Virus record (IMG/VR): IMGVR_UViG_3300012348_000111
Location: 41,102 to 105,101 of that record
Source of the DNA: a virus
Direction: 5' to 3' (one strand)
DNA: 64,000 nt
A program made the position numbers and the translations under genes. This document shows, piece by piece, positions 1-24,977 of the stretch. How positions within the stretch are numbered: position 1 is the stretch's first letter; each line of letters begins with the position of its first letter. Under the pieces are notes generated by a model, which was not told the DNA's origin, made no database searches, and saw only the letters and a program-made list of their open reading frames with translations.

Positions 1-2395
1 AAACTTTTATTTTCCTAAGTTCATTTTCTTCTACGTAAAAATAATCTACTTCTCTAGTAACAAAGGAGTACATCTTATGCCTGTCTATAACAGCTCCAAA
101 TGTTTCTCCGTTTTCTTTATTAATTCTTTCTTGAATTTTTTGAAGACGATTATTCATATTTTGTAGTTCAGGAATAACACCTTGCATTCCTTTTAGAATA
201 TAATCGGCTACAATTCTTACTGTAGGAGTATCTGTTAAGAAAGCACTATCAAAAGATTGTTTAAACCAATTGTTCTTGCTTTTTGGATCTAGAAGTAAAT
301 TTTTTATGTCTTCAGGACCTTTAGGTAATTCGTTTAACCTTTTATTAATTTCTTTTATTTTTTGAGTTTTTGCTTGAGCAGGTATATTTTCTTTTTCAAT
401 TTGTTTAATTTGATTTTTTAATTCAAAAGTCAACTCATCTATACCATTTTTAATACCAGCATAAAGTTCTTCACTTAAAGGTATTAGAGTACCTCTATTT
501 GATTCTTCTTTAATAATATTAATCGTATCTTGAATTACTTTAATATTATAGAATACTAAATTGTTGTTTCGTTTCTGTCTGTCTTCAGTGGTAATTGCAT
601 CTATAGTTTCCCTTACTCTTTCAGGAAACATATTTTTTAAGGCATTTATTTGTTTTTCAAAAGCTTCAGCTTGTTGATTTGCAAAATAAAGTGCTGATAA
701 TTTAATTTGAGAAGGTAGTTCATCGTTTTCTTTATTTTCTCTTATCCTATGAACGACATTTCTTAAATGAAGATTCGATGTTGTTAGATAGTTAGCAAGC
801 TCGTAGTAAGCTTCTGCTACGTCTTCTTTAGTTACAAGATTTTTAATTTTCTCTAAAGACTTTGCAGATTCATCTAGAAGTTTACTTTCTCCTTTTAATC
901 TTAATTTTTTAGTAGAGAAACGAATAGCATTTAAATCTTTGTCTGTTATTTTATCAGCTAATGTTTTTACTTTTTCTCCAAAAGACTGTTGTTCGTTAGT
1001 AGGTAAAAGTTCTATAGCTTCTTTAAACATTCTTCCTTTATCTTCAGAAGTAAAACGAGAAAACATATATTCAGCAAACTCTGGACTATATTGTTTTTCT
1101 ATTAAATCTACTTCTTCTTTACTTAAAAGACTGTCTACTAAGTTACCAATGTTTGTTTTTTCACTTACTTCAAATGAAAAAAGATTTTTAAAATAGTCGT
1201 ATATTTTTTGCCAGATAGTTTTAGAATCTCTATTTCTATACTCTACATCAGCTTGTTTTCCTAATTCTGTTGTTATTACCTCTTCCCAGAATGAATCACT
1301 CAATCCATATTCAGGATATAAGGCCTTTACAATAGCATAGGACGAACTTATTGGATTGTCCTTATGTAAGTCTTCAATTTCTTTTTTAAGTTCGTTAAAT
1401 AGCTCAGGATTGTTTTGTCTAATACTTCTTACTAAGATGTGACCAAATTCATGCCAAGGTGTTTCACTTGTTATAAGGTTCGGATTAAACATTATTTCTC
1501 CAGTAGTTAGATTGATTTTAGCTACTTGATCTAAATAAGGATTATAAGACCAAGTTGTTCCTTTAAATTTAGTGCTTAGGAAATTTATTACTTTACTAAA
1601 CTTTTCAAATTGAGGATTATTTACAGCAAGTCCTGTATGGAATCTAGAATCAAACCATTGACCATCGAAAGGTAATACTTCACCATCAACAACAATAGTA
1701 TTAGATTCTTTCATTAAATTTAAGAAGTCAGCATCTTGATTAGCTAATGCTTCAAGAGCCTGCATTGCTTCTATTTCTGCATATAATGATTCTTCTTGAA
1801 CTTCATCTATAACTTCAATTAGTTTTTCATAATATCTATTGTTAACTGTAAGAACAAGTTCGTAACCACCATCTTCCAAACTTTCTAGTTTTGCTACTAC
1901 TGGTTCGTGAGTAAACCCATAGGTTTTATTTAGATTTGTTGCAATAGCATATGCATACCCTCTAAAGTTTTTATATGATTTATTTTTAGTGTCACCTCTA
2001 AATGTTTTATCAGTAGGTTTTATAAATACTCTATATCCATCTATTGTAACTGATTCTCTAGATTCTAATGGTCTTATTTCCCTATCAAAAATTAATCTTT
2101 GAATATATTTAGATTTTTGTGCAAGACTAAGCTCATTGTACTCTATATTGTTTGATAATTCTAAAATTAAATCTTTTACTTTTTCTTGCTGTAAATATTT
2201 AGAAATGATTTGTTCTTCTACTTGTTTAGAGTACATAGTAGAACGCATTTGTTGAGAAACAAAGTTCTTAAATCCTTCTATATCTTGTTTATTACCTAAA
2301 AAATTACCAGCAAACTCAAAAAAATGAGATTTAAAGTATTCATTAAACTCTGATTGAGAGTATTTTTTATTATTATATGTTATTATGCAAGCCAT
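1..2395 (-). CDS. Large virion cargo/polyvalent protein with zincin metallopeptidase domain (3'-truncated by window edge)
   Basis: Absent from the ORF track. Hand translation from ATG 2395 gives MACIITYNNKKYSQSEFNEYF..., open to position 1. Contains TPWHEFGH (~1440) and a downstream EEVITT, an HExxH...E zincin signature. Confidence 0.85.
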   Translation of the reverse strand, partial: MACIITYNNKKYSQSEFNEYFKSHFFEFAGNFLGNKQDIEGFKNFVSQQMRSTMYSKQVEEQIISKYLQQEKVKDLILELSNNIEYNELSLAQKSKYIQRLIFDREIRPLESRESVTIDGYRVFIKPTDKTFRGDTKNKSYKNFRGYAYAIATNLNKTYGFTHEPVVAKLESLEDGGYELVLTVNNRYYEKLIEVIDEVQEESLYAEIEAMQALEALANQDADFLNLMKESNTIVVDGEVLPFDGQWFDSRFHTGLAVNNPQFEKFSKVINFLSTKFKGTTWSYNPYLDQVAKINLTTGEIMFNPNLITSETPWHEFGHILVRSIRQNNPELFNELKKEIEDLHKDNPISSSYAIVKALYPEYGLSDSFWEEVITTELGKQADVEYRNRDSKTIWQKIYDYFKNLFSFEVSEKTNIGNLVDSLLSKEEVDLIEKQYSPEFAEYMFSRFTSEDKGRMFKEAIELLPTNEQQSFGEKVKTLADKITDKDLNAIRFSTKKLRLKGESKLLDESAKSLEKIKNLVTKEDVAEAYYELANYLTTSNLHLRNVVHRIRENKENDELPSQIKLSALYFANQQAEAFEKQINALKNMFPERVRETIDAITTEDRQKRNNNLVFYNIKVIQDTINIIKEESNRGTLIPLSEELYAGIKNGIDELTFELKNQIKQIEKENIPAQAKTQKIKEINKRLNELPKGPEDIKNLLLDPKSKNNWFKQSFDSAFLTDTPTVRIVADYILKGMQGVIPELQNMNNRLQKIQERINKENGETFGAVIDRHKMYSFVTREVDYFYVEENELRKIKV

Positions 2396-3027
2396 ATTTG
2401 ATTATTTTTTATTTTATAAATTGTTGTAGTTGAAACATTAAACTTATTGGCTAACTCTTTTACTGGTTTATTAGAACTTCTAATAAAAGAAACTTTATTC
2501 CAATTCAATTTAGCAGAATTATTATTTTCTCCTTTTTTAGATTCTGATAAATCTTTGGCTCTCTTTTGAGCAGCTAATTTAAGGTTTAATTTATGTTCTT
2601 CTGAAAATATTTTTCTCTTACCAGATTCAGACATTTTATTTTTAGTTTCTTCTGAAACTGTAAATCCATAACCTCTTACAGCTTTACCTTTTCTTTTTTC
2701 TGACATCTTTTGTTTAGTTTCATCTGATGCTTTTAAACCATAATTACTTTCTGCAATTAATCTAATATTAAACTTATTACTATACTGGTCTAAAAACCAC
2801 TGTTCTAATTTGATACAATATTCAGAAGGACAAGTAGCTAACACTTTAAAATCTATATTCTCAATTCCATATTTGTTTACAAAGTTTTGTAAGAGTTTGT
2901 TTACATGAAAATTAGACCTTAATTTATCAAAATGTGTTTTCTTTCTTAAAGAAAGATTAGTTGCAGAGCCTATATAAACTCTATCATCTATTTTAGAAAA
3001 TATTCCGTAAACTCCTGAATTTAACAT
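2383..3027 (-). CDS. GIY-YIG homing endonuclease with NUMOD3 repeats and C-terminal HTH
   Basis: GVYGI...VYIGS motif; SDETKQKMS and SEETKNKMS NUMOD3 repeats; LANKFNVSTTTIYKIK HTH. Confidence 0.9.
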   Translation of the reverse strand: MLNSGVYGIFSKIDDRVYIGSATNLSLRKKTHFDKLRSNFHVNKLLQNFVNKYGIENIDFKVLATCPSEYCIKLEQWFLDQYSNKFNIRLIAESNYGLKASDETKQKMSEKRKGKAVRGYGFTVSEETKNKMSESGKRKIFSEEHKLNLKLAAQKRAKDLSESKKGENNNSAKLNWNKVSFIRSSNKPVKELANKFNVSTTTIYKIKNNQIWLA

Positions 3028-3812
3028 ACTCTATCGATTTTACCAGTTTCTATTAATCTGTTTTCTATTTGCATAGAAGACTTACTTATAATAAATTGTC
3101 TAAATTGCTCATAAGTTCCATATTTAGCAAATTCACTATTTTGAAAAGCCATATAATCTTTGAAACCTTGAATATCAGCTTTAGATGAAAGTATGTAGAT
3201 TTGTTCTGGTTCAAATACTATATATTGATGAGCAAAATCTATATCCCCTACTATTCCATTATCAGCAAGTTTATCTATAGTTCTCAGTACCGCATCTCCT
3301 TGTCTATCCTGAGCCTGGGGATTATCAACTAGTTTTAAATTTTTAGCATTTAAAATCGCAGAAAAAACCTTTGCTGTTTTAACTGCATTGTATTCTTCTA
3401 AAGATTCAAACTGACTAAAGTCTATAGAACCTTCTGCATAAAAATCTGCAGTTTTTTTACTATCAGTAAAGTAAATTCCTTGGGTAGATTGTTTTGTATT
3501 TTTACCAGCTTGGTTAATATCAAAACTATCAAAGCGACCATCAGGTGTTCCATGATAAACTATTTCTTTTACTTGGCTGGTTTTAAAAATAGTAGAAAGA
3601 TATTGCATGTATTGAGCTTTAGTACCAATAGCTGCAAGGTCTGGTGACTCTTTAAATACACTATCAATAGCTTCCATTTTCCTTTTAAATGAATCTATAA
3701 CATCTTTATTTTTACTAATAGATGTAGCAAATTCATTTTTATTATTAATAAAGTATTCTTTAAATTTTTCTTCAGAATACTGTTTCCCTTTATATGTTAT
3801 TATACAACTCAT
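3021..3812 (-). CDS. ADP-ribosyltransferase-like protein (ART-PolyVal type), probable virion cargo
   Basis: VYHGT...FDSFD...GIYFTDS...A.FY...QYIVFEPEQI motif series typical of phage polyvalent ART domains. Confidence 0.75.
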   Translation of the reverse strand: MSCIITYKGKQYSEEKFKEYFINNKNEFATSISKNKDVIDSFKRKMEAIDSVFKESPDLAAIGTKAQYMQYLSTIFKTSQVKEIVYHGTPDGRFDSFDINQAGKNTKQSTQGIYFTDSKKTADFYAEGSIDFSQFESLEEYNAVKTAKVFSAILNAKNLKLVDNPQAQDRQGDAVLRTIDKLADNGIVGDIDFAHQYIVFEPEQIYILSSKADIQGFKDYMAFQNSEFAKYGTYEQFRQFIISKSSMQIENRLIETGKIDRVC

Positions 3813-4474
3813 GCTTTTTTCCAGATTTTATTATTTTTAATTTGGTTTATGGTAGCTCTTGAACAACTAAATAATTCTGCTATTTCTTTATCTGTTTTAC
3901 TACCCACTAAAGATTTAATTTTTTTAACTTGTTCTATTGTAAGTTTAGAATATTTACCACCATTGGCTTTGGCTTCTTTCATTTTTTGTTTAGTTTCTTC
4001 ACTTATTATTCTACCAGTTAATGCTTTACTCATTTTATCAAGAGTTTCTTGTGAATGAGTGTAATTACTTCTATCTACTTTCTGTCCAGTTTTAGCTTTG
4101 CTAATATTTAACTTAGCTTTTTCTGACATTTTATAACCTCTTTTTCTGTTTGCAGGAGGTCTTCCTACTGTTTGAGCTAAGTTTAATTCAGGTTTTAGTT
4201 TATCTACAAACCATTGTTCAGCTTTTAATAAATACTCTTGTGGGCATTTAATTAGTATTTCAAATTTAAGATTTTCTATTCCTAATTTTAAACAAAGTCT
4301 TTGAAAGTATCTATTAAAATGTTTTTGTTTTAGTATAGCTCTGTTGTGAGCTTGTAATCTTTCTTGTAAATTATTAGTAGAACCAATATAAAATCTGCTA
4401 TCATTATCAAAGTAAAGTTTATAAATAGCACAAACTCCTGTATATTGCCCTCTTTGTAAATCTTTTACGAACAT
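3809..4474 (-). CDS. GIY-YIG homing endonuclease with NUMOD3 repeats and HTH
   Basis: AIYKL...FYIGS motif; HSQETLDKMS and SEETKQKM repeats; IAELFSCSRATINQIK HTH. Paralogous to 2383-3027. Confidence 0.9.
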   Translation of the reverse strand: MFVKDLQRGQYTGVCAIYKLYFDNDSRFYIGSTNNLQERLQAHNRAILKQKHFNRYFQRLCLKLGIENLKFEILIKCPQEYLLKAEQWFVDKLKPELNLAQTVGRPPANRKRGYKMSEKAKLNISKAKTGQKVDRSNYTHSQETLDKMSKALTGRIISEETKQKMKEAKANGGKYSKLTIEQVKKIKSLVGSKTDKEIAELFSCSRATINQIKNNKIWKKA

Positions 4475-5238
4475 TGTTTATCAATTATTTTTTGAGATTT
4501 TAAATCATTTAACATACTATTATACAAATTGTCATCTATTTCTTCAACTTTACTATCAGGAAAGATAGTATCTAAATATGCAGAGTATTGTTGTATAGCT
4601 TGTTGTTTCTGTTGGGGGCTTATTTGTTGAATTTCATCAGAAGTTTTAATTCTAAAAGCTCTTTCTTCTGTACTATATCTACCATCTTTTTCAACTCCAT
4701 AATCTCCAATTTTTTCAGCAAATCCTTTTTTAGTTAATGCCAATAAAGTATTTATTTCAGCTTTTGAGTTATCAAAATCAGAATACAGTGTATCTCCAAA
4801 TTCATTTTTAGCCCAATCTGCAACAAGAGTATGAACTATTTGCCCATAACCTTGATTTTGGAACTCTTCATTTAATTTAATAGATAAACCTACTTCTTTA
4901 CTTCTTCTATCATTTTTTACAAGTTTTACTTCACCTATATTTTTTCCATTAAGTTTTATCCATTTCCAACCATCTCTTTCTTTAGTATCTAAAGATATAC
5001 CTTTAGTATTAAAACTTTTAAATCCTGAAGCTTCATACACAGCATTAGCTAACTCAGGATTAGATTCAAATAGTTCTACAATACCTTCTTTAATAACTGC
5101 GTTAGATAAATTATAATACTTAGCGGGAACTTCTCCTTCGTATTTATCCCATAGATAATATGCTAGATCAGGATGAACTTGTTCTAGTTTAGTAAATTGT
5201 TCTTTTATTTTAGGATCAGATAGATTTGGACAAAACAT
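4465..5238 (-). CDS. GNAT-family acetyltransferase-domain protein, probable virion cargo
   Basis: IKLNEEFQNQGYGQ matches the acetyl-CoA-binding Q/RxxGxG motif. Flanks are shared with the neighbouring ART protein. Confidence 0.65.
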   Translation of the reverse strand: MFCPNLSDPKIKEQFTKLEQVHPDLAYYLWDKYEGEVPAKYYNLSNAVIKEGIVELFESNPELANAVYEASGFKSFNTKGISLDTKERDGWKWIKLNGKNIGEVKLVKNDRRSKEVGLSIKLNEEFQNQGYGQIVHTLVADWAKNEFGDTLYSDFDNSKAEINTLLALTKKGFAEKIGDYGVEKDGRYSTEERAFRIKTSDEIQQISPQQKQQAIQQYSAYLDTIFPDSKVEEIDDNLYNSMLNDLKSQKIIDKQCS

Positions 5239-5258
5239 TTTTATTTAAATTAATATTA

Positions 5259-5289
5259 CAAATATAGTTACGAAGTAAACTTTTAGCAA
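5259..5289 (-). promoter_or_regulatory. Bacteroidota-type -33/-7 promoter
   Basis: TTG-N20-TATATTTG upstream of 5238. Confidence 0.7.
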
Positions 5290-8200
5290 TTATCCTTATT
5301 CTTTTTGTTTTTATTTCTAATAGACATGAATGAATCTTGAGCTGCTTGATTGTATTCGGCAGATAGATCTAGTTGTTCAGAAACAATAGAAATAGGTGTA
5401 GTAGATTGTGTTTCAGTAGTAGCGGTATCTACTTCTTCATCTACTTTAGTTATTGTTTCACCATTAGATTTAGAAGGAGTAATATTTGGCCTACTTAATA
5501 CGTAGTCTTTATAGAAGTTTAAGTCAGGATTAATATCTTTAACTTTTGCAAACTCTGGGTGATTTTCTCTAAAACGTTTAGTAAACTCACTTAACTTAGC
5601 TCTTTGTTCTTCTTCTGAAAGATTTGCAAAGTTTTCCAAGACAGTACTCATTGGATAAGTATAGATCTGTTCTGGGATAAGTGGTAAGTAAGAGTCAAAC
5701 TTTTTGTTTAATTGAGAACCCAATATACCAGCATAAGCAAAGTTCTTAAAGAATGTTTGCATATTTTCTATAAGTTGAGTATCTACTACTGGATCTAATT
5801 GGGGGTGTGAATAATTAAACCCTTGATTAAACTGTTCTCTATAGAAATCTACACTGTAATCAAAAGAGTTTTGCTTTAGTCCTGTTCTTAAGAAGTTAGA
5901 TTTTTCATCTGTGTTAAAACGAACTAAATCAAAGATTCTATTTTGAGAAGTAATTTTCTTTTCAGCTAATTTCTTCTTAAGATATTCATATTGAGCTTTT
6001 AGATTTTTAGAATTTCTTTTATCTAGTAAAGATTCATATTGAATAATATTTGGAACTTCATTGATGTACATTGAATACAAGAAGTCATTCTTAAATACTC
6101 TAGATAAAGTTTCGTATTGTAAAAATTTATTTTTCTTCGCATATTGCTGATGTAGCTTAACAATACCATCTGTTACTGTTTTACTAGCTGATACAGGGAA
6201 TATCTCAACAAACTTATCTAAAACAGATGTTTGTACTTGGAATGGAGATACTACAGATTCAAAAATAACTTTATCGAATGCTTCTTCTTCAAAGAACTTT
6301 TCTTCTTTTAACTTTAATAGTTCACCGTCATTGGCTCTAAGTGATTCAAAGTTTTGAGGAGACAAAGTATCAAAGTCTGTGTTGGCAGAAAGTCTACGAA
6401 CTTTATCAGCTTGATTTTTCATTTCAAGGAAAAGACCTAATCTGTAAACATCAGAAATAACGTTTTCTTTAAATAGTCCTTTTAGAATAGTTTCAGTATC
6501 GTACTTTTCTACAAGACCTCCTATTGTTAGGTTGATAAATTTCTTTTCTGAATATCCAAATTTACTTCTTGACTTTTGAACTATGTTTTTAATTGTTGGA
6601 TCTTGAATTTGTTCAACAATATTCATTATAGAACCAAAGTCATTTAACTTACTGTATTGAGCAATAAGAGAATCTTTACCTTTTTCTGAACTCATGTTAA
6701 CCAAGTTAACCATTGCTTCAAAAGGTGTTCCCAACATAGTAGCATAGTTGACAATAGGTGTTACTACGTTATTAAAGTTGATTAACGCAATTCTATCGTC
6801 TTTCTCAATATCTACGTGAGCACTAATCATTTGACCCTGTACAAGAGAAATAGGTTTACCTTTAGTATCTTTAGTTCCTTCAAATGTTAAGTTACCTTCT
6901 ACTCTATTTGCAGGAAGAACATAGCGACTATTAGCTTGTTTGTCTACAATAGTCAATTTAGCTTTCTGTAAGATAGAATGAAGTACGTTGTTTTTAGCAT
7001 CTGTACCTAAAGCTTTCTTATATGTGTTAAGAGAGAATACATAAAGCTGATAGTTAGGATTAACTATGTTTGTGTAGTTTGCTTCGTTTGTAGGATTTTT
7101 AGTTAAACCATCAGCAGCTTTTTCTATTTCAGAAATAGAGTTAGGTGTAATTAAGTCTTCAAATATCTCTTCGTTAGTTAAACGATCAGACATATTAAAT
7201 AGAATGTTATTAGAAAATCTATTTCTTATTGCTTTTAATTCGTTTTTACTATCTGTTAACTCTTGATAGATTTCAGCCAAAGCGTCATTAGCTTCTTGAA
7301 GTCTAAAACTAAGTTTGGTTTCAGAATAATCTTGAAGAATAGAAGAAAGATTTTTAAGTTTAGCTTTTCTTTCAGCAAGTTTAGCTTTTTGATCTTTAGA
7401 TAAGTTCTTTTCAAGAATTTCTTTTCTTGATAAACCATTCTTAAACTTATCTAAAAGCATTTGCTTAGCATCCATCTCTTCATCTACTTCTACATCACCT
7501 TCAAACTTTTCAGCTCTAAGTTGTTTAAGTTGTTTGTAAACTTCGCTTACGCTTGAAATATTTTTAGATTTTAAAAACTCTTCTATTTCATTAAGAGTGT
7601 TTTGTTTTTCTTCTAAGTACTCTTTTACAATTTCTTTATTTGTTTGAATATCTAAAGCTAATTGTTTTTTGCGAGCAAACGCTTCTTTAGGTGTAAGATT
7701 GTTTGTCATTACGCTTCCATCAGCTTCGATGAAAGGATCGTAACAGAACAACTTATCAATATCATAGTCAGAACCAGACTTAACAACCATCTCATCAGGA
7801 ACTAAAATAATATCTCCTGTTTCTTCAGGTAAGAATTCTACTATTTCAAAACTTTCAATAGAGTTATATCCTTGTCCTGGAATACGAATAGCTACAATGT
7901 TTAATTGTCTTTCGTATTGTTTTCTAAAAGCAGGATCATTTAAAGCCTCATTAAGACGTTTTAAAGCAGTATGAGGATTGATGGGTTCACCTTTAGCGTT
8001 TAGTTCGCCTATAGGGCTTCCATTGTACTCTAAATTAAAAAGAGGATAGTAAAGCTTAGAGAAAGAAATCATTATTTCTGCTTTTGTTACCTTTCCGTCT
8101 TTTAAGTCATAGTACTTAAGTTTACGATCACTCATTAAAGATACAGGAAACTGTACTCTTTGAGCACCATTTACTTTTTGTCTAATAACTTTGTTTTTAA

Positions 8201-11200
8201 CAGAAGATACAATCGCACTTTCCATTACTGTTCTGTCTACTAAAGCGTCTAATAAGTATTGTAGTTTACCATCTTCTTTTATTTGAATTAAATCTTTTGT
8301 TGCTTGTGCAGCACCTTTACGGGATAATTCACCTACGATAAATTCTACAAGCTTTTCTTTATTGTCAAGTTTTTCTAAGAATTCGTTTGAATCGTATTCT
8401 ACTAAGTTCTTAACGTAGTTTCTATAAAGTTCATATGCTTCTAATTCAGCATTTGTAGTTGCATCTTTGTAGATAAGTTTTCTTAACTGAGAAGAGAATA
8501 TATTTTGGAAAGATTCTTTGTTTTCAACTATTACTTGTTCTTTAAGATATTTGATTTCAATAATACCTGGAGCACTTGGTGCAGTATCTACTTGACCATC
8601 TTTAAATAAATCAATAGCTGGAACTGTTTCAGCAATCTTAGTTCCACTACTAAACACACCATAGTCTGCTCCTGAAGCATAAAGCTTAAATAAAATATCA
8701 GCTGCTCTAGGATTAGTTACTGCCTCTGAAGGAAGTAAAGGTTTAACTGAGTACTTATGGAAGATAGGAATAGAAGGACCAAATATAGACTGATTGTTTC
8801 CTGCATACTGAAGTTTCTTTACACTAAACTTAAATTTAGGTTTTTGGTTTAAAAGATTATCTAATTGTCTTTGAAGCATAACTGCTTCATACTGATTAGC
8901 ATTCTTTAGTTGAAGATAAGTGCTCCAAATATTATTTTGGCGAGTAAACTCTTCTTCCATATCTAAAGTAATACCTGTAGACGTTGCATAGAATCTTCTA
9001 AAGAAATCCATAGTAGCTACAGACGCAGCGTCTTGTGCTTTAGAATCTTTATCTTTAGTGTAAGCGTCTCTTACTTTATCGTAAGCTGATGATTGAGCTG
9101 TTTCAGATACTACTGGATTATCATTAAATACTAAGTAAGAAAGTTTAGTAGGATCTTTAGGCAATACATTAATAGGAAGATTATTTTCTATTGCGTATTG
9201 TTGAAATGCTTTTTCTTGAGCATAAGAATCGTTTTCTACATTGTTTAAAGCAGCTACAGTAGTTCTATCCATATTGGTATATGTACCATAAGCATTCCAT
9301 GCAGACAAACGTTTCTCGATATCTTTAGCGTTTTTATAGTAGTAAGGATGATTAAAGAATAGTTTGTGTTGCTCTACACGCATTACAAAAGAATAGAAAT
9401 GATACTTAGCAAGTTGTTCGTTTGACAGATTGTATCCAGCTAAAGTGTCTTGACTTACTTCTACGTTGTTATTAAGATACTCGTTAAACTTAGAATAAAC
9501 TTCTTGAGCATAACTAAGTTTTAAGAAAGCATCTTCAAGTGTTGTGTTAGCAGGAAGTTCTTTAAGATCATTTATAAGACTTTGTTTTAAATCAGGACTG
9601 TCGATAATTTTTTCAAAGTAAGCAAGTTTTACATTTTCAAGTTTAGATTTAAATAAATTTTGATTAACCTTGCTATTTTGAGTGTCTATTTCTGATTTAA
9701 GAATAGGAAGAATGAATTGTGAAAATAAACGGAAGTCTATTCTTACTTCATTTTCTTTAGTAAAAGTGTATTCAATGTTGTCTGATTTAGCAAGACCTAA
9801 GAACTTTCTAGCTGATAGATCTAAACCAATACCTCTTGTTGTACTTTTACCTGATAGACGATTTAATTCTTCCACACCACCATTAAGTAATCCTACTATG
9901 TCAGCATAGTGTTTCATGCTTGACAGAGAGTCAATGGTTTTTTCTCCATCAAATCCGTCTTCAATACCTAATAAGTTAACGATTTCAACTTTTCTAGGTT
10001 TACCGTTTTCAACTATTCTATTACCAGCTACATTAAAAAGATATTTTAATACCCAAGATCCTCTAGCGTTGGTATTCATTGCTTGATTCAAATGTGGTAT
10101 TTCTTTTTCTACATCTTCTAAAGTTTTATAGTTGGTACTATCATTCAAGATAGATAGAACTTTAGTCATGTAAGTATGTTGGTTAACACTCCATATTTGC
10201 TTTCCTACAGCATTATAACGCATGTCATTAGCGTATGTAGGGTTAGCATCTATTTCAAGATTTAAAAAGTAATTAACAGCACTTACTTCGGATTTAATTT
10301 TACCTGTTTCAGTTTTGTGTTCTTTACTTATTAAACCTAAAGGAGTAAGCATAGGTGTTCCTACATCAGAAAGAGATTTAAGTTTAGTTCTAATTAAATT
10401 TAAGTTTTGAATTACTGTTTCTGGTTTTTCAGTTCTTAATGACTCCAGACCTAAAGAAGTATAGTTTAAACCTAAAGCTTGTAATTGTAAATAAACTTGA
10501 TCATAAAATCCTCTTAACGCATCAGGATCTCCTGTAGGAATGGATGGTGTCTTTTCAAACATACTAAAGAACTCTTCAGTATTTAATGCATAAGAACCAT
10601 TAGTAGTCAATACTTTAAATGGACCAGCCTCTGTATAGAAATCAGAATCTAACTGACTTCTTAATTGTACAGCATCTAATGAAAGTGCTTTAAGAACTTT
10701 AGTTTCTGTAATATTACCTTTGTCGTCTCTTTCTATTTTTACAGTAGAACCGTCTATGTAAGGCATAGTAAAGAGATTAAAGAATTGTACTTTAAATGCT
10801 AAATCTGTAATTCTTGTTATTGTATTATCAGCTTTAGGTAAGTAATCTAAGAAGGTATTAAATTGAGGAAACTTAACAGCAACTTCTTTGATTTTATTGT
10901 ACATTTCATTGTACGTATTTAGTCCTGTTAATTCTCTTTGTAGAATAGTCCAGTTGCTTTCAAAATCACCAAGTAATGCAAAACCTAATACGGGATCAGT
11001 TACTTTTTCAGTTCCTTCATATCTAGGTAGTGTTCGTATAGCATTAATGATTACATCACTAGCCATATCTTTTTGAGACATTTCCTCTATAGATTTTTCA
11101 AACTCACCTATACCTTCATTCTCAGGTTCGTTAAGTACTTCATCTATAGCATTAAGAATGTTTGTAGACTTAATTTTATTGTCAAAAAGAGTAGAGTTAT

Positions 11201-14200
11201 TTTTATGAAAGTCTAAGATAGTTGCAATATTAACTATCTTTAGAGCTAAGTGATCTACTTTTTCAGCTTGATTAAAGTCATCTGGGTTCTGCTCAAGTAT
11301 TTCATATTCTTCTTGATATACAGTATCTAGATATTTTACTACGTTTTGATAGACTGTCTTTACTTGTTTAGGATTAAGAAGTACGTTTACTACACTTGCG
11401 TTGTAAGGCTTAAGGATAGCATTTGCAATATCTACAAATAAGCCATCAAACTCTTCTATTGTTTTTTGTGTTTCTGTATAAGAAAGAGCAAGAGGTTGAT
11501 CATTCTCATCTAAGATAACTAGTTTAGAAGAGTAAAGCTTTTTAAAGTAAGCGTTTTGTTCGTTACGTTTATAACGAGTAATGTTTCCTTTGTAAAGCTG
11601 ATCAAAGTATTTATCTACTGTTTTTTTATCAGAGATTAAGTTAGTAATGAAGTCCCAAATCTTTTGAAAGATAGATTTAGTCTCTTTGTATTTTGCAATC
11701 TCAGAAGGTATTGTTTGTCCTCCTGTTAAAGCATATTGACGGAAAGACTCAGCAATCTTTTCTTCAAGTTCCACAAAAGGTAAATCTCCCCATATCTTAC
11801 GTGCTTCAGAATAAAGTTTTTCTTTCTGATCACCATTAAGATATAATTGAGAAAACTCATGCCATGCTTCGTGATAAGCTTCTGCATAGTTAGCACCTTC
11901 AAATAATTGAATACCTGCTTTAGACCATATAGCATATGCTTCTGGATGAGCAATGGTAGTATCAAATATAAAAGGTGTATTCTTAAATATAGGATGACTT
12001 TCTACCCAAGCTTTAGCTGCTTCGTTTTCTTGTTTGGTTATTTTGTTAGAAAGTGTTCTAGCTCTTTTTAATGAATTAGGATCTATACCTGCGTCTTCAC
12101 CTCTACCTTTTATTTGAGAATTTGCACGTTCTATTAAACTTCTTCTTTTAGATACTGGTTTATTTTCTACTACAGGTTGAGTAGATTGTTCTAAAGCAGC
12201 TAGTTCTGCGTCGTACTTATCGTCTATCTGCTGACTTGTTAGGAACTCATTAAAACCCTGGTCAATAAATTCCGTAAACTGAATAAAACTTCCTTTAGTA
12301 AATCTTAATACTTTATTATTATTTACTTTAGTAATAATTGCTTTTCCTATCTGTGCATTACTCATACCTTTAATACGAGCTAGTTTGATAAAGTCATTAA
12401 TAGCCTTTAATCCTTTTTCATACTCTTCTTGTATTTCAGAATCAGACCAATCCTTGAATACAGAATTGGGATCTGTTTCTCTATCAATTTTAGCACTATT
12501 AACGGTTACAATTACTCTAAGTCTTACACTGTTTGATTGTTCTTTTTGTCTTCTTGTTTCTATCTCAGCTTTAGCGTCTATAGATTGAGTAGATTCTTCT
12601 TTAGCTAAAGGATCTACAATGTTTTCTTCTACATCTTGAACAGACTTAGATGTTTCTGGTTGAGTAGGAACCATAGGTAAAGGTTGTTCAGCCTTTAAGG
12701 TTTTTTGCCAATCTTTTTTAACAGTGGCTCCAAAGTCAGAACTTAATACAAATTCTTTATATGTTTTGAACTCTTTAATAGTAGGTTGACCATTTACAAA
12801 CATAATTGCTTTGAATGGTTGTTCACTATTAAGTCTATTTGCAAATAAAGGTTTACGTATTTCTGTTTTAGATAAAAGTTCTTTTTGAGTAGACTTACCT
12901 ATTACTTTAGCTTTTCCTTCTGGAGTAACAGCTTTAATATTAAGTTTATCACTATCTCTATTTTTACCAATAAAGAATTGACCTTGAGGAAAGTATCTTA
13001 ATGTTTTATTTTTTCTTTCACTAAAGAAATTGTCAGCTATAAGTTCTAAAAACTCCTGCGGATCTGTAGGAAATTCTTTAGGAAGAGTTCCATTATTAAA
13101 TGCTTCAACTAGGTTAAAAAGATTACTACCCTCTACTTGAGGTAAGTCTATACGACTATAAGGATAGATAGCACCTTCTCTTTCTAGATAAACTGCTCCC
13201 TTTTCAAGAGTATATTTATTTCCAAATGGTGATTCTCTTTCTATAGTATCTGCTATATGAACATATACTTTTGATTTATCGTTTACTAAGCCAGCTAAAG
13301 GTACCGCTTTAGTCGTAGATGTTCCTTCTGTGCCAGTAATTGTAGCTAACACAGGAGTGTTGTTATTAGTAATTGCTGTTACTTGGTCTTTAGCAGGACC
13401 TGATTTTAAAGGTGTAATTAACGGTGCTCCTGTTTCAGATGTACCTATATAACCTTCAGGAGTAAAGTAAATTACTTCTCCTTCTTTATTTGTAATTATA
13501 GTTAGAGCTGCTCCTTGATTATTTACAGCTGCAGGGTTTTTAGCAAAAAAGTCAATAAAAGCTTGATCTACTATTTTGATACCATTAAAAGTAAATATAC
13601 TTTCTAGTTCTTTTTTCTGTTCTGCATTAAGTGGTTTCTTTTCGTTAATAAAAGATTCTACTCTTCCAAATCTTTCTTTAGATAGAATAGTTTTTAAAGT
13701 ATTTAAAGGTAATTGAATTAGAATAGCAACATCAGCATTTGCACCACCTCTTATTTTATTATCTATTACTTGAACAATATTTAATGCTCTTAAATTGAAT
13801 GGGTTTTCTGTTAGTCTATCCTGTCTATCTAATTCAACAATGTTTAACTGTAAAGTATTTTTATTTACAGCTTGGGTTTTATTGTCTTCTTGTTGATTAA
13901 GTTCGTTTTTATGATTAACGTTATTCTCTTCTATTTCAGATTCTGTAGGTTTACTGTCTGAAATAGTATCTCCTTCTTCTTCTTGTTTATCAACTTTTTC
14001 TTGTTCTTTAGGTGTTAGGTTATTTTTCAAACCCATCATACGAGTTTGAAAGTCTTCTAGCATTACTACAGGAAGAAAAGAAGTTCCTTCTAAACTAAAG
14101 TTAGGCTCATTAGAATAAAGAGAATCAAAAAACTTTGTAATTGCTTTCTCTTCACCTGGAAAGAATCCTAACATTGCTGCTTCAGCTTCAGCTAAAGATT

Positions 14201-17200
14201 CTATTTCGGGATTATTTATTAGGTAATCAAAGAAGTCTATTCTTACACCACTATTGAATTTACTAGTTTCTACTTTTCTATCTTCTTCAGATTCTAAAGG
14301 TACTAACTGATCTTCTAAAGATTCCTGAGTTCTTAATCTTTCGTTTCTAAATTGATTATAAATATCTTCATTTAATGGTCTTTCAGAAACTACTACAGTT
14401 TTTTCTTCTTTGGGTTCTTTACTTGATGCAGGAGTAAATCCTCTTTCAAAAGGTTTTTCTTCTTCAGTTGGTTTTGATTTTTCTTCTTTAGGTTCTTCTT
14501 TAGGTTCTTCTTTCTTCTCTTCTTTTTTACTTTCTTCAGTTTTAGAAAGTTCTTCTTTAATTTCTTTATCTGTAACAGGTTTGATATTAGCTTTATCTAG
14601 AATAGATTTATTAATATCTTTTATTACTGTTAAAGATTCTTCTGGAGTAAGACCTTTAGTAGAAAGTTCATAAAAATTATTAGCATATTCTCTATATGCT
14701 TCTAGTTGTGTTTTTTTGTTAGGGTCTGTTTCTTTTGATGCAGCATGTCTTTCTAACATATTACCTAACAATAAACGTTGAGCATCTGTTAAATGTTGAT
14801 GTGCATCTGCTTCTAACTGACCAGATTCTAATTCAGCTTGAGATAATTCAGCCGATGTCATTACAGCAACCTGTGCATCTTTAGTTTCTGGATTAGTTAA
14901 GTTAAATGAACCTTCAGCTATAGATTGATCTCTATCTAATTTCTTTCTTGTTTCTATTTCACTATTTATAAGATCAATTAAATCTTGTTCATAAAAATTT
15001 TGAAGTTGTGGTCCTGATGTTGGTACAAAAGGTGCGTTAATAGCTTCTTGTCTTTTAGATCCTTTATATTGTTGTAAGAAAGGTATAAAGTTTGTTTTTG
15101 CTAATTCGAGTTCAAGAAGTGTTAATTTTTCAGGAGACTCTTCTAGTAGTTGTTGAAAACCATCTAACCTATCTGCAACTGTAGCCTCTACTTCTGTTAT
15201 AAACTTATCATATTCAGCACTTATAAAGTCTTGTCTTTCATCTTCTGGAGATACTAGAACTCTATTTACAGCTGTTTGATTTAATGTGTTTACAAGCGTT
15301 GTTAGGCTATTATCTGAACTAGTGGCCGTCTTAGCTTGTTTAGCAAACATATTAGAGATAATGCCTTTCTTTTCTTGTTCAGTAAGACCTACGTATTTTT
15401 CAATTCTTTTTTTAGAATTAAGAACAACATCGCTAGCATCTGAAAGTTGTTTTTCGTAAGCTGCTATTTGTTCAGGTGTAAAAGTAGAAGTATCAATAGA
15501 AAGTAAATCTTCTATGTCTTCTACACTATTAAAGTAATTGAACTGTGCGTCTCTATCGTCTAATAGTGTAGAAATATTCTTTAAAGAGTTTATATCTGTA
15601 ATAGAGTCTAATCTTGTTTTTAATCCGTTTACAGCTGCTGTTCTTTCTACAGCCTGTTCTTTGGTTAATTTACCGTTTTGAACTTGTTTGTTAATAAACG
15701 AAAGATATTGTTCAGGATTATTAGCTATATCCCATCTGGCTTGACTTCTTCTAGAACGAGAATCAAATGCTGCTGGAACACCAGAAATAAACAATGAAGG
15801 AATAAATCCACTTACAAATGTTTCTAATCCATTCTGTAAAGTAAGATCGTTTGATTCTTCTACTGTAAAGTCTTTACTTGCAGCATACTTATCTACAAAG
15901 TAATTACCTAGTAATGAAAATTCTTCTTCTAATGATTCCTGAACTGCACCAGATAAGGTTTTTCTAATAGCTGATGGTGCTACAAGTAAAGCAGCTTTAG
16001 TTGGTGATATTGCGTTTTTGGGCAATAGTCCTAATAATACATCACGATTGTAAGTCATTCGTGAAAAGTTAGTAGGATCTAATTTACCAGCTTTCTTAAG
16101 TAACCCGTCTAAAGGACCTAAACTTCTATCGGCTTTAAAGAAATCAGTATCGGGAATTATAGTTTCTGATAAAGCTTCTACACCAGATCTAAGCAAAGCT
16201 ACATTACGAGCATCTCCATCATTTTTAAAGTTGTTTCTTTCTTCTGCATAAAATCTAGGAAATGTAGTAGCGAATGTATTACCAAAAGTAGATATCCTTG
16301 GAGCTACTTCTTTTAAAAATGTTTTTTGAGCAGTAGTAGATAGTCCAGCTGACTTACTTATATTAGACCAAGAAAGATTCATTCCTCTACCTGCAGCACC
16401 TACACCTCTACTTAACAGAATTGTTTGAGCCACATCAATAGCTATAGGAAGTGTTTGTTCAGTTGCTGCTGATAAGTTCCAATGACCTTCTCCTTTTTCA
16501 TCTACCCAATGTACATTAGATACATATATAGGATTGTCTTGAGAATCTTTAATTACTTCATTAGATTCTATTAATGAGTTTTTATTTAAATCATTTACTC
16601 TACGATACTGTGGAGGAGCAAACGATTTAGCACCTAAGTTAAATCCAAATGCACCTACTTTATCTCCTGTTAAAGCTGCTATACCTGCTACTTGATTTGT
16701 AGCATTAGAAAGCATTTGTTCACCACCTCTATATGCAATACTTTTAGCTTTTCTAAGAGGGTGTTGATACCAGCTACTTGTCGCTAAATCATTATAAAGA
16801 ATTTCTGATTTTTCTTTCTTTACTTCTTCTCTATATAGTTCAGGATAAGATAGCTTGTAAAATTCTTTTTTGTCCTGAAGTGGTTCAAGCTTTTTACTTA
16901 GATCTTTAGTGAAGAGTAGGTTTTCTTCAAGCTGTTTCTTTTGGTTTAAAACATTTTGATTATTAGGATCTTTTTCAAGTTGTTGATTTACTTCAATTAA
17001 AGATTGAGATAGTTCTTGTTCTTTATTTTTAGCAGCTACACCCATTAAATTAGTGTAGTTGTAGTTTATGTTTGCTAATTCAGTAACATATTCTTTTTGA
17101 GACTGTACACCTATCTTACCTCCTATACTTTGAGTAATAGGATTTACAGACATAAATTTTGCAAAAGTACTAGAACTAAATATAGGAGAAAGTTCTAAAG

Positions 17201-18053: not shown

Positions 18054-19709
18054 TTAAGATTCGTCAGATTTTCTTTTTCTTCCTGAGAATGTTTCTATTG
18101 TGTTTGTTTGAGCTAAAGATTCTATATTTTTTAAACTAGATATAGGAATTGAAAGTAAATCATTTCCTGTTGCCATTTGAGTATCACCGTCTTTAAAGTT
18201 AACTACAAATGTTCTATTAGCTAATTGACTTGTATATTGATTTAAAGTTTTTTCATAATCTTTAATTTGAACAGAAGTTAAATCAGATTTATTTTGTAAA
18301 GCATCAATTGCTTCTTCAACATCCTCATTTATTATACCTTTATTTAAAAACTTAAAGAATTGAACAACAGCTTGTTTTTGATTTGTTGGAGCAACTCTAG
18401 TTGCTTCTTTACCCGCAATAACATCACCTAATACAAATTTGTCTATATCCATGTTAACTGTAGGATCTGAAAGAACCTGAGGAATTACAATTAGATCTTG
18501 AGTAGAAACATTACCCATGTTCCAAAGGGTTTCTTTTTTCTTTAGTAAGTTTTCAGGTTTAGCTGATTCTAATCTAGCTTTTACTTTTTCTTTTTCAATA
18601 TCTAAGTTATTTTTCAAAACTTCAAGATTTTGTTTTTGAACTACATCCCAAACTTTATCATCTTTAAGATCTCTAGATACTTTTTGAGTAGTGTAAAGGT
18701 TAGCTAAATTAGTTACAAATTGATTTTGATATGTTTCAAAATAATCATTTGGATTGAATTCTTCAAACTTTTTAGATGAATTTTGTTTAGCTCCTAAATA
18801 GTATTGAGATAGAACTTGAACGTTTTGTTTAGCGGCATCGATTTCTTTTTGTACAGAAGGTGATTTAACTCTAGCATTAGATGCTTCTAATATCGCAAGT
18901 TGCTCTTTTGCATTAGTAAGACTTTCATCAATAGCAACCATTTTAGTTGTTTGATCTTCTATGTACGACTGATATGCTCTCTGTGGTCCTAAAGCATTAT
19001 AATAATACTCTGTGTCTATTTGAAGTTGTCTAGCTGCTTTTGGATCAGTTGAAAGCATACCTTTGACTTTATTTGCTAACTGTGTTGTATTAAAACCCTG
19101 TTGAGTTATTTTTTCTATGTATCCAGTAGGTGTTCCTTCACCAACAGTATAGAATTCGTTTTGTTCTTCTTTAGATAATGTTTTAACAAAATCAAAAACC
19201 TTTTCAGAAATATCATAAAACTCATCGTATTCTTTGTCTTGCAAAGATATACCTAATTTATTAGCACTTAAATAATCATTAACATCTTTAGTATAAAACC
19301 AATCGTTAGTAGCAGATCTTTTAGAAGAATCTAACTCAGATAATGTTTTTTGTCTTTTCTGAATTATTCTACCATTTTTTACAGCATTGATAATGTTTCT
19401 GTCTTTTTCTAAAGGTTTACCTATACCAAGAACCGATTGAACATTTGCTTTTTTTGAAAAATCTAAACCAGCACTATCGTTAACAGCTTTAACCATGCTA
19501 GTCATGGTTTCATCAAAGTACTGTTGTTCAATAGGAGTATAGATTTGATTTCTTAACTCACTGTAAGCATCTATTTGTGACTGTACTTGAGTTACTCCTT
19601 CATCAAACATTTGTTGCTTATATAAAGCAACTTTAATTAAGTCTTCAGCTGGTAGTGGAGATATATAATCTGGGTATTCGAATTTCGTATGATTTGCAGA
19701 AATTGCCAT
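18054..19709 (-). CDS. Virion cargo/ejection protein
   Basis: 551 aa, helical/coiled-coil; lies between the cargo-1-like gene and the vRNAP, as in Crassvirales. Confidence 0.6.
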   Translation of the reverse strand: MAISANHTKFEYPDYISPLPAEDLIKVALYKQQMFDEGVTQVQSQIDAYSELRNQIYTPIEQQYFDETMTSMVKAVNDSAGLDFSKKANVQSVLGIGKPLEKDRNIINAVKNGRIIQKRQKTLSELDSSKRSATNDWFYTKDVNDYLSANKLGISLQDKEYDEFYDISEKVFDFVKTLSKEEQNEFYTVGEGTPTGYIEKITQQGFNTTQLANKVKGMLSTDPKAARQLQIDTEYYYNALGPQRAYQSYIEDQTTKMVAIDESLTNAKEQLAILEASNARVKSPSVQKEIDAAKQNVQVLSQYYLGAKQNSSKKFEEFNPNDYFETYQNQFVTNLANLYTTQKVSRDLKDDKVWDVVQKQNLEVLKNNLDIEKEKVKARLESAKPENLLKKKETLWNMGNVSTQDLIVIPQVLSDPTVNMDIDKFVLGDVIAGKEATRVAPTNQKQAVVQFFKFLNKGIINEDVEEAIDALQNKSDLTSVQIKDYEKTLNQYTSQLANRTFVVNFKDGDTQMATGNDLLSIPISSLKNIESLAQTNTIETFSGRKRKSDES

Positions 19710-19716
19710 AGGTTGT

Positions 19717-22230: not shown

Positions 22231-22287
22231 AACTTTAAAAGTTATAACATAATAAGTTATTAACTTATTAGTTTATAGATAGATATA

Positions 22288-22317
22288 CAAATATACAAGA
22301 TTATGTAAAAAAAGCAA
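22288..22317 (-). promoter_or_regulatory. Bacteroidota-type -33/-7 promoter
   Basis: TTG-N19-TATATTTG upstream of 22230. Confidence 0.75.
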
Positions 22318-22322
22318 GATAA

Positions 22323-22466
22323 TTATCTACCTTGCCCTTTGTACGTTTTCTTATAGTTTTTGCTTTGTTTTAGTCCACTGGTTTTAGTTTTAGCATGTAC
22401 ACCAGGTCTGTTAACTTTTGGTTTTTCTTTATGTAAAGAAGAGGTTTGGGTTTTTACTTTTGCCAT
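22323..22466 (-). CDS. Small basic protein (47 aa)
   Basis: Hand translation MAKVKTQTSSLHKEKPKVNRPGVHAKTKTSGLKQSKNYKKTYKGQGR; fills the intergenic gap in operon orientation. Confidence 0.7.
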   Translation of the reverse strand: MAKVKTQTSSLHKEKPKVNRPGVHAKTKTSGLKQSKNYKKTYKGQGR

Positions 22467-22474
22467 TATATTAG

Positions 22475-24974: not shown

Positions 24975-24977
24975 GAC

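What the first reader, a model, noticed from the sequence alone, without database searches (positions are those of the whole stretch)
2380..5290. Head-to-tail terminal cysteines in consecutive virion cargo proteins
Seen: the vRNAP ends ...KDNC*. The next protein is MFC...KQCS*, the next MSC...DRVC*, and the next starts MAC. In the 257-aa and 263-aa proteins these are the only cysteines. By eye the vRNAP has one other Cys in 4245 aa, and the visible ~798 aa of the last ORF has no other. Inference: each C-terminal Cys could join the Cys3 of the next protein (disulfide, metal bridge or ligation). That would make a plug-in chain in which effectors are co-packaged and co-ejected with the polymerase.
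Basis: partly seen in the sequence, partly recalled or inferred. Interest (0 to 1): 0.75.

Follow-up and report, generated by a model that had tools for sequence, protein, structure and literature searches.

The report
Cysteine-tipped junctions chain crAss cargo proteins
In this crAss-like phage the giant virion RNA polymerase protein, two small enzyme "effectors" and a 1962-residue protein are almost free of cysteine except for one at each end that faces the next protein; relatives keep this rule wherever the genes are split, which suggests the injected proteins are tied end to end, most likely by disulfide bonds.

Summary
Four minus-strand proteins hold 9 Cys in 6727 residues, and 6 of them sit at the six termini that face a neighbour. 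These are the 4245-aa zincin+RNAP fusion, p257 (GNAT-like), p263 (ART) and p1962.

They lie exactly in two of the three junctions, and their ATG overlaps the tail Cys codon.

The rule holds in about 130 distinct junctions of IMG/VR relatives, including a TAG-recoded gut clade. It also holds in the cultured phages phi14:2, crAss001 and crAss002. First links have only a tail Cys, middle links have both, and last links have only a head Cys. Fused forms have none at the equivalent sites.

Split points differ between lineages. In crAss001 the first link is encoded on the opposite strand, so this is a protein-level feature.

An unrelated cyanophage, A4, shows the same signature, and cryo-EM has seen the tail-head disulfide there. 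I found no paper describing the rule for Crassvirales.

Best reading (about 0.65): reversible end-to-end disulfide tethers, with GNAT and ART modules as plug-in links. The bond itself is untested.

This scan has already noted the same pattern on other DNA (52 findings in at least 48 genomes).

The parts
5283..18020 (-). First link: a 4245-aa fusion of the first cargo protein (zincin HExxH at residue 2050) with the two-barrel virion RNA polymerase (DYDID at residues 3418-3422). It has no N-terminal Cys. Its tail Cys4245 is the last residue (codon 5286-5288).
   Evidence: for the ORF and Cys positions. BLASTP to the catalytic regions of phi14:2 gp077 and crAss001 gp50, with the aligned DFDxD/DYDID motif and the HExxH motif.
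4465..5238 (-). Second link, p257. Its head is MFCPNLSDP...AYYLWDKYEG (Cys3, codon 5230-5232). The body is GNAT-like. Its tail is ...KIIDKQCS* (Cys256, codon 4471-4473).
   Evidence: The Pfam GNAT hits are just below the cut-off, but family members carry PF00583 or PF08445. In the head alignment Cys is invariant.
3809..4474 (-). Free-standing GIY-YIG homing endonuclease (221 aa) inserted in the junction between p257 and p263. Its ATG (4472-4474) overlaps the tail Cys codon, and its stop overlaps the ATG of p263.
   Evidence: Pfam GIY-YIG and NUMOD3 hits are above the cut-off. The DNA was read. No group I intron was found.
3021..3812 (-). Third link, p263. Its head is MSCIITYKGKQYS (Cys3, codon 3804-3806; beta-hairpin 4-13 in the model). 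The body is an ART-PolyVal ADP-ribosyltransferase domain. Its tail is ...ETGKIDRVC* (Cys263, codon 3024-3026).
   Evidence: Pfam PF18760 scores 38.1 bits against a cut-off of 31.2. The AF2 model has pLDDT 82.5. Foldseek matches tankyrase/PARP ART domains. Of 119 short homologues, 96 have both terminal Cys.
2383..3027 (-). Second GIY-YIG homing endonuclease (214 aa, 35% identical to the first) in the junction between p263 and p1962. Its ATG (3025-3027) overlaps the tail Cys codon, and its 3' end overlaps the start of p1962.
1..2395 (-). Last link, p1962. Only its N-terminal 798 aa lie in the window, and the ORF runs on to genome position 37608. Its head is MACIITYNNKKYS (Cys3, codon 2387-2389). 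It has a zincin HEFGH at residue 315, no Cys near its C-terminus, and an internal C-x12-C pair at 1713/1726.
18054..24499 (-). Context only. Three cargo-like proteins (551, 837 and 674 aa) lie directly upstream and have no Cys at all. They are not part of the cysteine chain.
   Evidence: They have no Pfam or PHROG match. Their cargo role is inferred only from position.

Best explanation
The four proteins are the split pieces of the Crassvirales polymerase-associated cargo block, which is packed in the capsid and injected with the DNA. The block as a whole avoids cysteine, as ejected proteins of other phages do.

At every place where the block is cut into separate polypeptides, the upstream piece ends in a short tail with one Cys. 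The downstream piece begins with a short head (M-x(1-3)-C...) with one Cys. I propose that the tail docks on the next head and the two thiols form a disulfide in the virion. The pieces would then make one ordered thread: zincin+RNAP fusion, then GNAT, then ART, then the 1962-aa protein.

Such a thread would be packaged in fixed stoichiometry and pulled through the tail as a single chain. It would fall apart on reduction in the host cytoplasm. p257 and p263 carry both adaptors, so they behave as plug-in effector links. The two GIY-YIG endonucleases home to the conserved junction DNA and probably spread such modules.

Shown here:
- the Cys distribution;
- its conservation;
- its covariation with gene fission and fusion;
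- its independence of gene order and strand;
- the presence of inter-protein disulfides in crassvirus virions;
- a solved tail-head disulfide in phage A4, which has the identical signature.

Inferred:
- the bond in Crassvirales;
- the docking of tail on head;
- when oxidation happens;
- the roles in packaging and ejection;
- release by reduction.
For: 1. Window: 6 of 9 Cys lie at junction-facing termini, P = 3e-14.
2. Loci found through the head domain gave 41 non-redundant junctions. Of these, 39 have a tail Cys and 40 a head Cys. Cys content is 0.09%. Nineteen upstream giants have the tail Cys as their only Cys, including complete proteins of 2155-2431 aa.
3. Loci found through the ART domain follow the pattern tail-only | head+tail | head-only. 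Fully fused giants of 2345-3309 aa have zero Cys.
4. Of 130 distinct pairs chosen only because the upstream ORF has a tail Cys, about 120 have a Cys in the first 8 residues of the next ORF.
5. In 119 short homologues of p263, 214 of 222 Cys lie within 8 residues of an end. The 67 long homologues mostly have 1-2 Cys, at the termini, and none flanking an internal ART domain.
6. Fission and fusion: the unsplit L070 protein (2375 aa = GNAT+ART+rest) has no Cys at the sites equivalent to the two junctions. The 4245-aa fusion here has none at the two split points used by relatives, near residues 1947 and 2236. Those two split points differ, lying before and after the zincin domain, so the fissions were independent.
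7. Cultured phages:
   - phi14:2: gp078 has Cys only at 1797 of 1797, gp077 at 3 and 2179 of 2180, gp076 only at 3.
   - crAss001: gp47 has Cys only at 2339, gp50 at 5, 1334 and 2404, gp49 only at 5. gp47 is on the opposite strand.
   - crAss002: gp32 has Cys only at 2019.
   - These are virion proteins by mass spectrometry.
8. Inter-subunit disulfides are seen in crAss001 virions.
9. In phage A4, cryo-EM shows a disulfide between gp27 Cys1715 and gp26 Cys5, with the C-terminal helix inserted in a cleft (PMC12002296). These are the only Cys of the 1717-aa and 1114-aa proteins.
10. Cys suppression in ejected proteins is documented for N4-like phages (PMC11445570). The retained terminal Cys are therefore under selection.
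Against: - No experiment shows the bond in any crassvirus. The cargo is unresolved in the crAss001 map.
- The cytoplasm is reducing, and I found no phage-encoded thioredoxin, glutaredoxin or Erv-type oxidase in this genome. Oxidation would have to be spontaneous or happen after lysis.
- Gut crassviruses live in an anoxic habitat.
- Packaging of the small p257 and p263 proteins is untested.
- The heads at junctions 2 and 3 are 49% identical and their tails are alike. Pairing specificity is therefore not obvious, and p263 could in principle cyclise or self-concatenate.
- I could not get model coordinates or run a two-chain prediction, so tail-head docking was not tested structurally.
- Some relatives carry a ~67-aa extension after the tail Cys, so the Cys is not always terminal.
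- One unpaired Cys (3426, next to the catalytic DYDID) does not fit the rule.
Confidence: 0.65

Rival explanations
1. Tails and heads do pair with each other, but not by a disulfide. The two thiols would help bind a metal ion, or only tune a non-covalent docking interface.
For: The junction logic needs partners but not a particular chemistry. The cytoplasm where assembly occurs is reducing, and no phage oxidase was found.
Against: There is only one Cys per terminus, and no conserved His, Asp or Glu next to it in heads or tails. Two ligands do not make a usual Zn site. In A4 the same signature is a disulfide. crAss001 virions contain several inter-protein disulfides.
Confidence: 0.12
2. The terminal Cys act independently of the neighbouring cargo protein. 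They might link to other virion parts such as portal-vertex or capsid proteins, carry a modification, or sense redox state on entry.
For: The cargo is unresolved in crAss001. Other virion proteins there use disulfides.
Against: This does not explain why the first link never has a head Cys and the last link never has a tail Cys. It does not explain why numbers of heads and tails match within a genome, or why a new pair appears at each independent fission and is absent from fusions.
Confidence: 0.1
3. Middle links (p257, p263) close on themselves through an intramolecular head-tail disulfide. Only the first and last proteins would be cross-linked to each other.
For: The Cys count stays even under this scheme. 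p263 carries a tail whose cognate head is 49% identical to its own head.
Against: In two-link systems the bond must be intermolecular. New pairs arise at fission points, where the two ends were adjacent in the ancestor, so they naturally restore the chain.
Confidence: 0.05
4. The pattern is an artefact. The C-terminal Cys codons would be a by-product of the overlapping ATG of the next gene (xxA TGT), or of split inteins or introns around the endonuclease genes.
For: In the window both HEG start codons overlap the tail Cys codon. HEGs between gene halves recall 'fractured genes' with split inteins.
Against: - Junction 1 has a 44-nt spacer and no HEG.
- Junctions without a HEG in relatives have the same Cys pairs, including empty sites of the same head family in L144 and L139.
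- crAss001 gp47 is on the other strand from its partner.
- No Hint or intein domain was found, there is no room for one, and there is no group I intron.
Confidence: 0.01

Closest known systems
Cyanopodophage A4 (Anabaena phage A-4L) pre-ejectosome, with a gp27 Cys1715 to gp26 Cys5 disulfide (PNAS 2025, PMC12002296)
   Same: Two consecutive giant ejection proteins are each otherwise free of Cys. One Cys lies 3 residues from the C-terminus of the upstream protein and one at residue 5 of the downstream protein. The bond was seen by cryo-EM, with the C-terminal helix docked in the partner.
   Different: It belongs to an unrelated family (Saffermanviridae) and has no BLAST similarity to the proteins here. 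It has a single link with no RNA polymerase, no effector modules and no endonucleases. It is part of an ordered pentameric core. The paper does not generalise the rule.
RNA-polymerase-associated cargo block of Crassvirales: phi14:2 gp078-gp077-gp076 (g067-g066-g065 in the vRNAP paper) and crAss001 gp47-gp50-gp49
   Same: These are homologous proteins with the zincin and DFDxD two-barrel RNAP motifs. They are virion proteins by mass spectrometry and are known to be fused in some phages. They obey the same Cys rule.
   Different: Here the first two links are fused (4245 aa), and the third is split into three links with added GNAT and ART modules and two HEGs. The papers I could read do not mention the cysteines.
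Polyvalent proteins of phages and conjugative elements (the origin of the ART-PolyVal domain family)
   Same: Many effector domains (ART, zincin, acetyltransferase) are delivered with the DNA. p263 matches PF18760.
   Different: Classical polyvalent proteins are single polypeptides thought to be cut by proteases. Here the modules are separate gene products that appear to be re-joined through terminal Cys.
Cysteine suppression in ejected proteins of N4-like phages (PMC11445570)
   Same: The injected vRNAP and its partners are nearly free of Cys.
   Different: N4-like proteins have essentially no Cys at all. Crassvirales keep exactly the junction-facing ones.
Genes in pieces made by free-standing homing endonucleases, and 'fractured genes' with split inteins (from my own knowledge, not checked in papers here)
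   Same: An endonuclease gene sits between two halves of a functional unit, and flanking ORFs get their stop and start at the insert.
   Different: No intein domains were found. The junctions exist without HEGs, so the HEGs occupy a pre-existing intergenic spacer rather than creating the split.

Membership tests
Crassvirales polymerase-associated cargo block | Two-barrel RNA polymerase with a DxDxD catalytic motif in a giant protein | tested here: met
   DYDID at residues 3418-3422 aligns with DFDID of phi14:2 gp077 and DFDVD of crAss001 gp50. BLASTP E = 3e-10 and 1e-8.
Crassvirales polymerase-associated cargo block | Zincin-like HExxH domain in a neighbouring or fused giant protein | tested here: met
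   HExxH at residue 2050 of the 4245-aa protein and at residue 315 of p1962. The first aligns to the crAss001 gp47 region 2135-2243.
Crassvirales polymerase-associated cargo block | The proteins are present in virions and are ejected | not testable with these tools
   This phage is uncultured. Orthologues are virion proteins by mass spectrometry in phi14:2 and crAss001.
A4-type tail-head disulfide between ejection proteins | A lone Cys near the C-terminus of the upstream protein and a lone Cys near the N-terminus of the downstream protein, with the proteins otherwise Cys-poor | tested here: met
   for the window. for relatives. for A4.
A4-type tail-head disulfide between ejection proteins | A disulfide bond observed between the two Cys | not testable with these tools
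   This needs non-reducing gels, mass spectrometry or cryo-EM.
A4-type tail-head disulfide between ejection proteins | A C-terminal helix that docks into the partner | tested here: inconclusive
   The AF2 model of p263 has a helix at 246-255 followed by an 8-residue coil ending in Cys263. The head is a beta-hairpin at 4-13 plus helices. No coordinates or two-chain model were available.
A4-type tail-head disulfide between ejection proteins | Sequence homology to A4 gp27 and gp26 | tested here: not met
   BLASTP of A4 gp25-gp29 against the crAss proteins gave no hit at E <= 0.01. The two systems are therefore analogous and not shown to be homologous.
ART-PolyVal (PF18760) | Profile match above the curated cut-off and an ART fold | tested here: met
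   38.1 bits against a cut-off of 31.2. Foldseek matches tankyrase/PARP ART domains at E = 3e-4, with low TM-scores of 0.3-0.4.
GIY-YIG homing endonucleases | GIY-YIG catalytic domain plus NUMOD3 or HTH DNA-binding modules | tested here: met
   Both ORFs score above the cut-offs for PF01541 and PF07460.
Split inteins / fractured genes | Hint-domain halves (IntN, IntC) flanking the endonuclease gene | tested here: not met
   No intein or Hint domain is found by Pfam in any flanking ORF. Only 0-1 residues follow the tail Cys and only 2 precede the head Cys.
Group I intron with an internal HEG | Ribozyme core around the endonuclease ORF | tested here: not met
   The Rfam E-value scan of 1-6500 found no intron. 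The HEG ORFs fill the whole gap.

The most novel reading that the evidence does not exclude
The Cys-tipped tail and head are a general connector system. Any effector domain that carries a compatible head and tail can be spliced at the protein level into the injected thread. Junction types would be partly orthogonal, fixing the order. GIY-YIG endonucleases that home to the junction DNA would move such cassettes between crassviruses. Each phage would thereby tune an injected train of enzymes that is released by reduction inside the host.
Probability: 0.35. Interest if true: 0.85.

Novelty: new variant of a known kind. Interest (0 to 1): 0.75.

Why it matters
Crassvirales are the most abundant phages of the human gut. 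How their very large cargo, including the RNA polymerase that starts infection, is packed and pushed through the tail is an open question.

A covalent but reversible end-to-end tether would explain three things. It would account for fixed stoichiometry. It would account for an ordered exit as one thread. It would also explain why these genes can be fused or split freely in evolution.

The rule gives directly testable predictions in two cultured phages. It corrects gene starts, for example crAss002 gp33. It lets the order of cargo proteins be read from sequence alone, even when the genes are not adjacent. The small GNAT and ART links with both adaptors suggest a natural plug-in format for injected effectors.

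Tried and rejected
- I first took the C-terminal Cys of p257 and p263 to be a by-product of the overlapping HEG start codon (xxA TGT). I rejected this because junctions without a HEG and empty sites carry the same pairs.
- Group I intron: none found by Rfam.
- Split intein: no Hint domains and no room for them.
- The 'phages' collection gave no DNA or protein match for p257, p263 or the polymerase C-terminus.
- A pattern search with the last 500 aa of the polymerase found no relatives. The first head alignment was too gapped to search with.
- A phage-encoded thiol oxidase or reductase was sought in the genome (Erv1/Alr, thioredoxin, glutaredoxin). None was found, and the Erv control rang nowhere, so that result says little.
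- The Cys-rich 194-aa protein near the cargo genes is an HNH endonuclease, not a redox protein.
I used the search for related loci instead.
- p-crAssphage accessions were not in the collection.


Full report
**What is in the window**

The window is part of a 105,101-bp IMG/VR virus record, about 90% complete. On the minus strand the region 1-18020 holds six ORFs, not four:
- a 4245-aa protein at 5283..18020
- p257 at 4465..5238
- a 221-aa ORF at 3809..4474
- p263 at 3021..3812
- a 214-aa ORF at 2383..3027
- an ORF starting at 2395 that runs out of the window and is 1962 aa in the genome

The 4245-aa protein combines two parts. It has a zincin HExxH at residue 2050. It also has a two-barrel RNA polymerase whose catalytic DYDID (3418-3422) aligns with DFDID of phi14:2 gp077 and DFDVD of crAss001 gp50.

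The other identifications are as follows:
- p263 is an ART-PolyVal ADP-ribosyltransferase (Pfam hit above cut-off). Its AF2 model has pLDDT 82.5 and resembles PARP/tankyrase ART domains.
- p257 is GNAT-like. Its own Pfam hits fall just below cut-off, but family members carry GNAT Pfam domains.
- p1962 has a zincin HEFGH at residue 315.

**The observation**

- 4245-aa protein: Cys 3426 and 4245 (the last residue)
- p257: Cys 3 and 256
- p263: Cys 3 and 263
- p1962: Cys 3, 1713 and 1726

Six of the nine Cys therefore occupy the six termini that face a neighbour. The chain has 0.13% Cys against 1.16% in the other ORFs of the genome. The three proteins just upstream (551, 837 and 674 aa) have none. 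The binomial probability of the placement is 3e-14.

**The trivial explanation, and why it fails**

Both HEG start codons overlap the tail Cys codon (..CAA TGT....GTA TGT..). Both HEG ends overlap the ATG of the next gene. In that phase, xxA TGN can only encode Cys, Trp or stop, so I first suspected a by-product. Four results rule this out:
- Junction 1 has a 44-nt spacer and no HEG.
- Relatives have the same Cys pairs at junctions without any HEG. Examples are L001 ..NSCGI*|MNICAKED.. and ..PPSC*|MNCTINDF...
- "Empty" junctions of the same head family exist: L144 ..QIIC* T ATG AGT TGT.. and L139. The HEGs therefore sit in a pre-existing short spacer between the stop and the start, and borrow the A-TGT as their ATG.
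- Rfam finds no group I intron, and Pfam finds no intein domain.

**Comparative evidence**

*Loci fetched through the head domain (AYYLWDKYEG)*. These gave 41 non-redundant junctions:
- 39 have a Cys in the last 8 residues of the upstream giant protein, and 40 have a Cys in the first 8 residues of the next. The exceptions are ORF-calling errors of my script.
- The proteins hold 0.09% Cys.
- In 19 upstream proteins the tail Cys is the only Cys. These include complete proteins of 2155-2431 aa.
- A gut clade that reads TAG as a sense codon keeps the rule.

*Loci fetched through the ART domain*. These follow the pattern tail-only | head+tail | ... | head-only. Fully fused giants of 2345-3309 aa have no Cys at all.

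*Pairs chosen by tail Cys alone.* Starting only from ORFs with a tail Cys, about 120 of 130 distinct next ORFs have a head Cys.

*Homologues of the small links:*
- In 119 short homologues of p263, 96 have both terminal Cys, and 214 of 222 Cys lie within 8 residues of an end.
- In 67 long homologues the ART domain is internal and has no flanking Cys. The proteins have one or two Cys, at the termini.
- The p257 family behaves the same way.

**Fission and fusion**

- The unsplit relative L070 (2375 aa) aligns to p257, p263 and p1962 in order. It has no Cys at the two junction-equivalent sites.
- The 4245-aa protein here is a fusion of the first two links of other phages. It has no Cys near residue 1947, the L074/L080 split point. 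It has none near residue 2236, the crAss001 gp47 end.
- Those two split points lie on opposite sides of the zincin domain. The fissions were therefore independent, and each has its own Cys pair.

**Cultured phages**

- phi14:2: gp078 (1797 aa) has Cys only as its last residue. gp077, the polymerase, has Cys 3 and 2179 of 2180. gp076 has only Cys 3.
- crAss001: gp47 has only Cys 2339 of 2341. gp50 has Cys 5, 1334 and 2404 of 2412. gp49 has only Cys 5.
- In crAss001, gp47 is encoded on the opposite strand from gp50 and gp49. This excludes any explanation at the level of DNA or translation.
- crAss002: gp32 has only Cys 2019 of 2020. The annotated start of gp33 is probably 32 codons too early, because an internal MSCTPSNP fits the head motif.
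- All of these are virion proteins by mass spectrometry.

**Chemistry**

- ΦcrAss001 virions contain several inter-protein disulfides: the gp57 dimer at the portal vertex, and the tail hub and ring proteins. The cargo itself is not resolved.
- A lead from earlier notes of this scan took me to the cryo-EM structure of cyanopodophage A4. [quoted passage not shown]
- I checked the A-4L genome. Cys1715 is the only Cys of the 1717-aa gp27, and Cys5 is the only Cys of the 1114-aa gp26.
- That is the same signature, in proteins with no detectable similarity to the crAss ones.
- Cys suppression in ejected proteins is documented for N4-like phages. This makes the retained terminal Cys stand out.
- I found no paper describing the rule for Crassvirales.

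**What is special here**

The third cargo protein is cut into three links. Two of them are small enzymes, each with a head and a tail.

The MSCIITYKG.KYSE head, a beta-hairpin in the model, occurs on many different payloads. It is almost always preceded by a GIY-YIG gene. Two HEG lineages go with two junction types:
- the 221-226-aa lineage with ..II[DEQ]K[KQ]C[SN]* followed by MSCIITY
- the 214-aa lineage with ..KIDR[VK]C* followed by MACIITY

Both types are present in the window. This fits homing to conserved junction DNA and spread of effector cassettes.

**Limits**

- The bond is untested in any crassvirus.
- No phage redox enzyme was found.
- The heads and tails of junctions 2 and 3 are similar, so pairing specificity is unclear.
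- I could not model two chains or read model coordinates.
- Some relatives have a ~67-aa extension after the tail Cys, followed by an extra ORF. I cannot explain this.

**Verdict**

The most likely mechanism is a reversible end-to-end disulfide tether (about 0.65). It is a new variant of the junction solved in phage A4, extended here to a multi-link chain that includes the virion polymerase and plug-in effectors. The same pattern has already been noted by this scan in at least 48 other genomes.

Noticed in passing
L127:535-4339, L175:1434-5001, L155:3-3570, L123:1-5001, L133:5001-8801; also P0106, P0199, P0265 and others: In some relatives the tail Cys is followed by a conserved extension of about 67 aa (C-GGKLKAEKG...THKEGGVDL...AKHGLVIPKN*). 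Next comes an extra ORF that starts MYKNIKVEAEHNELILEN and has a CxxC at residues 42-45. One of these ORFs has a YkuD L,D-transpeptidase domain. The next Cys head follows that ORF. This may be a nested cell-wall enzyme module with another kind of junction. It is unexplained.
   Followed up: partly
L039:12731-13120, L046:13656-15131, L054:14020-15132 and many other loci: The genes after the chain in relatives start with a fixed N-terminal Cys triad. One is a ~130-aa protein, MRTAAICPTCATYENA (C7, C10, C18). The others are collagen-like fibre proteins, MNxxCxxxxCPxxL (C5, C10, C18). They are possible anchors in the tail hub.
   Followed up: no
L015-L032 and L090-L117: A human-gut clade reads TAG as a sense codon, with 25-35 in-frame TAG in each giant ORF. 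It still keeps the tail and head Cys (..KDKCKN*|MTPFCPNF, ..KFICNL*|MNKYCPNK).
   Followed up: partly
L120:21242-21343 (crAss002 gp33): The annotated start of gp33 is probably 32 codons too early. An internal ATG gives MSCTPSNPKLDKLL, which fits the head motif, and the upstream stretch is AT-rich.
   Followed up: partly
genome 37608-43496 (p1962 residues 1713 and 1726, outside the window); L008, L070, L076-L078: A conserved internal C-x12-C pair lies in the C-terminal part of the last link. It is present in this subclade only and is probably an intramolecular pair.
   Followed up: no
window 24510-25954: A 154-aa DUF6321 protein ends in ...RRRWKC*, but the next gene has no Cys. Next to it are a 128-aa protein with CxxC at residues 11-14 and a 194-aa HNH endonuclease with 15 Cys.
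   Followed up: partly
L073:6171-7496, L150:4342-4833, L179, L194: Small ORFs of about 160 aa (MKLDKKIIDLLNYR...) and other non-GIY-YIG ORFs also sit inside junctions in some relatives. They may be other mobile genes using the same site.
   Followed up: no
window 7743-7745 (Cys3426): The only unpaired internal Cys of the 4245-aa protein lies four residues after the catalytic DYDID motif (DYDIDKLFC). phi14:2 and crAss001 have Y or I at that position.
   Followed up: no
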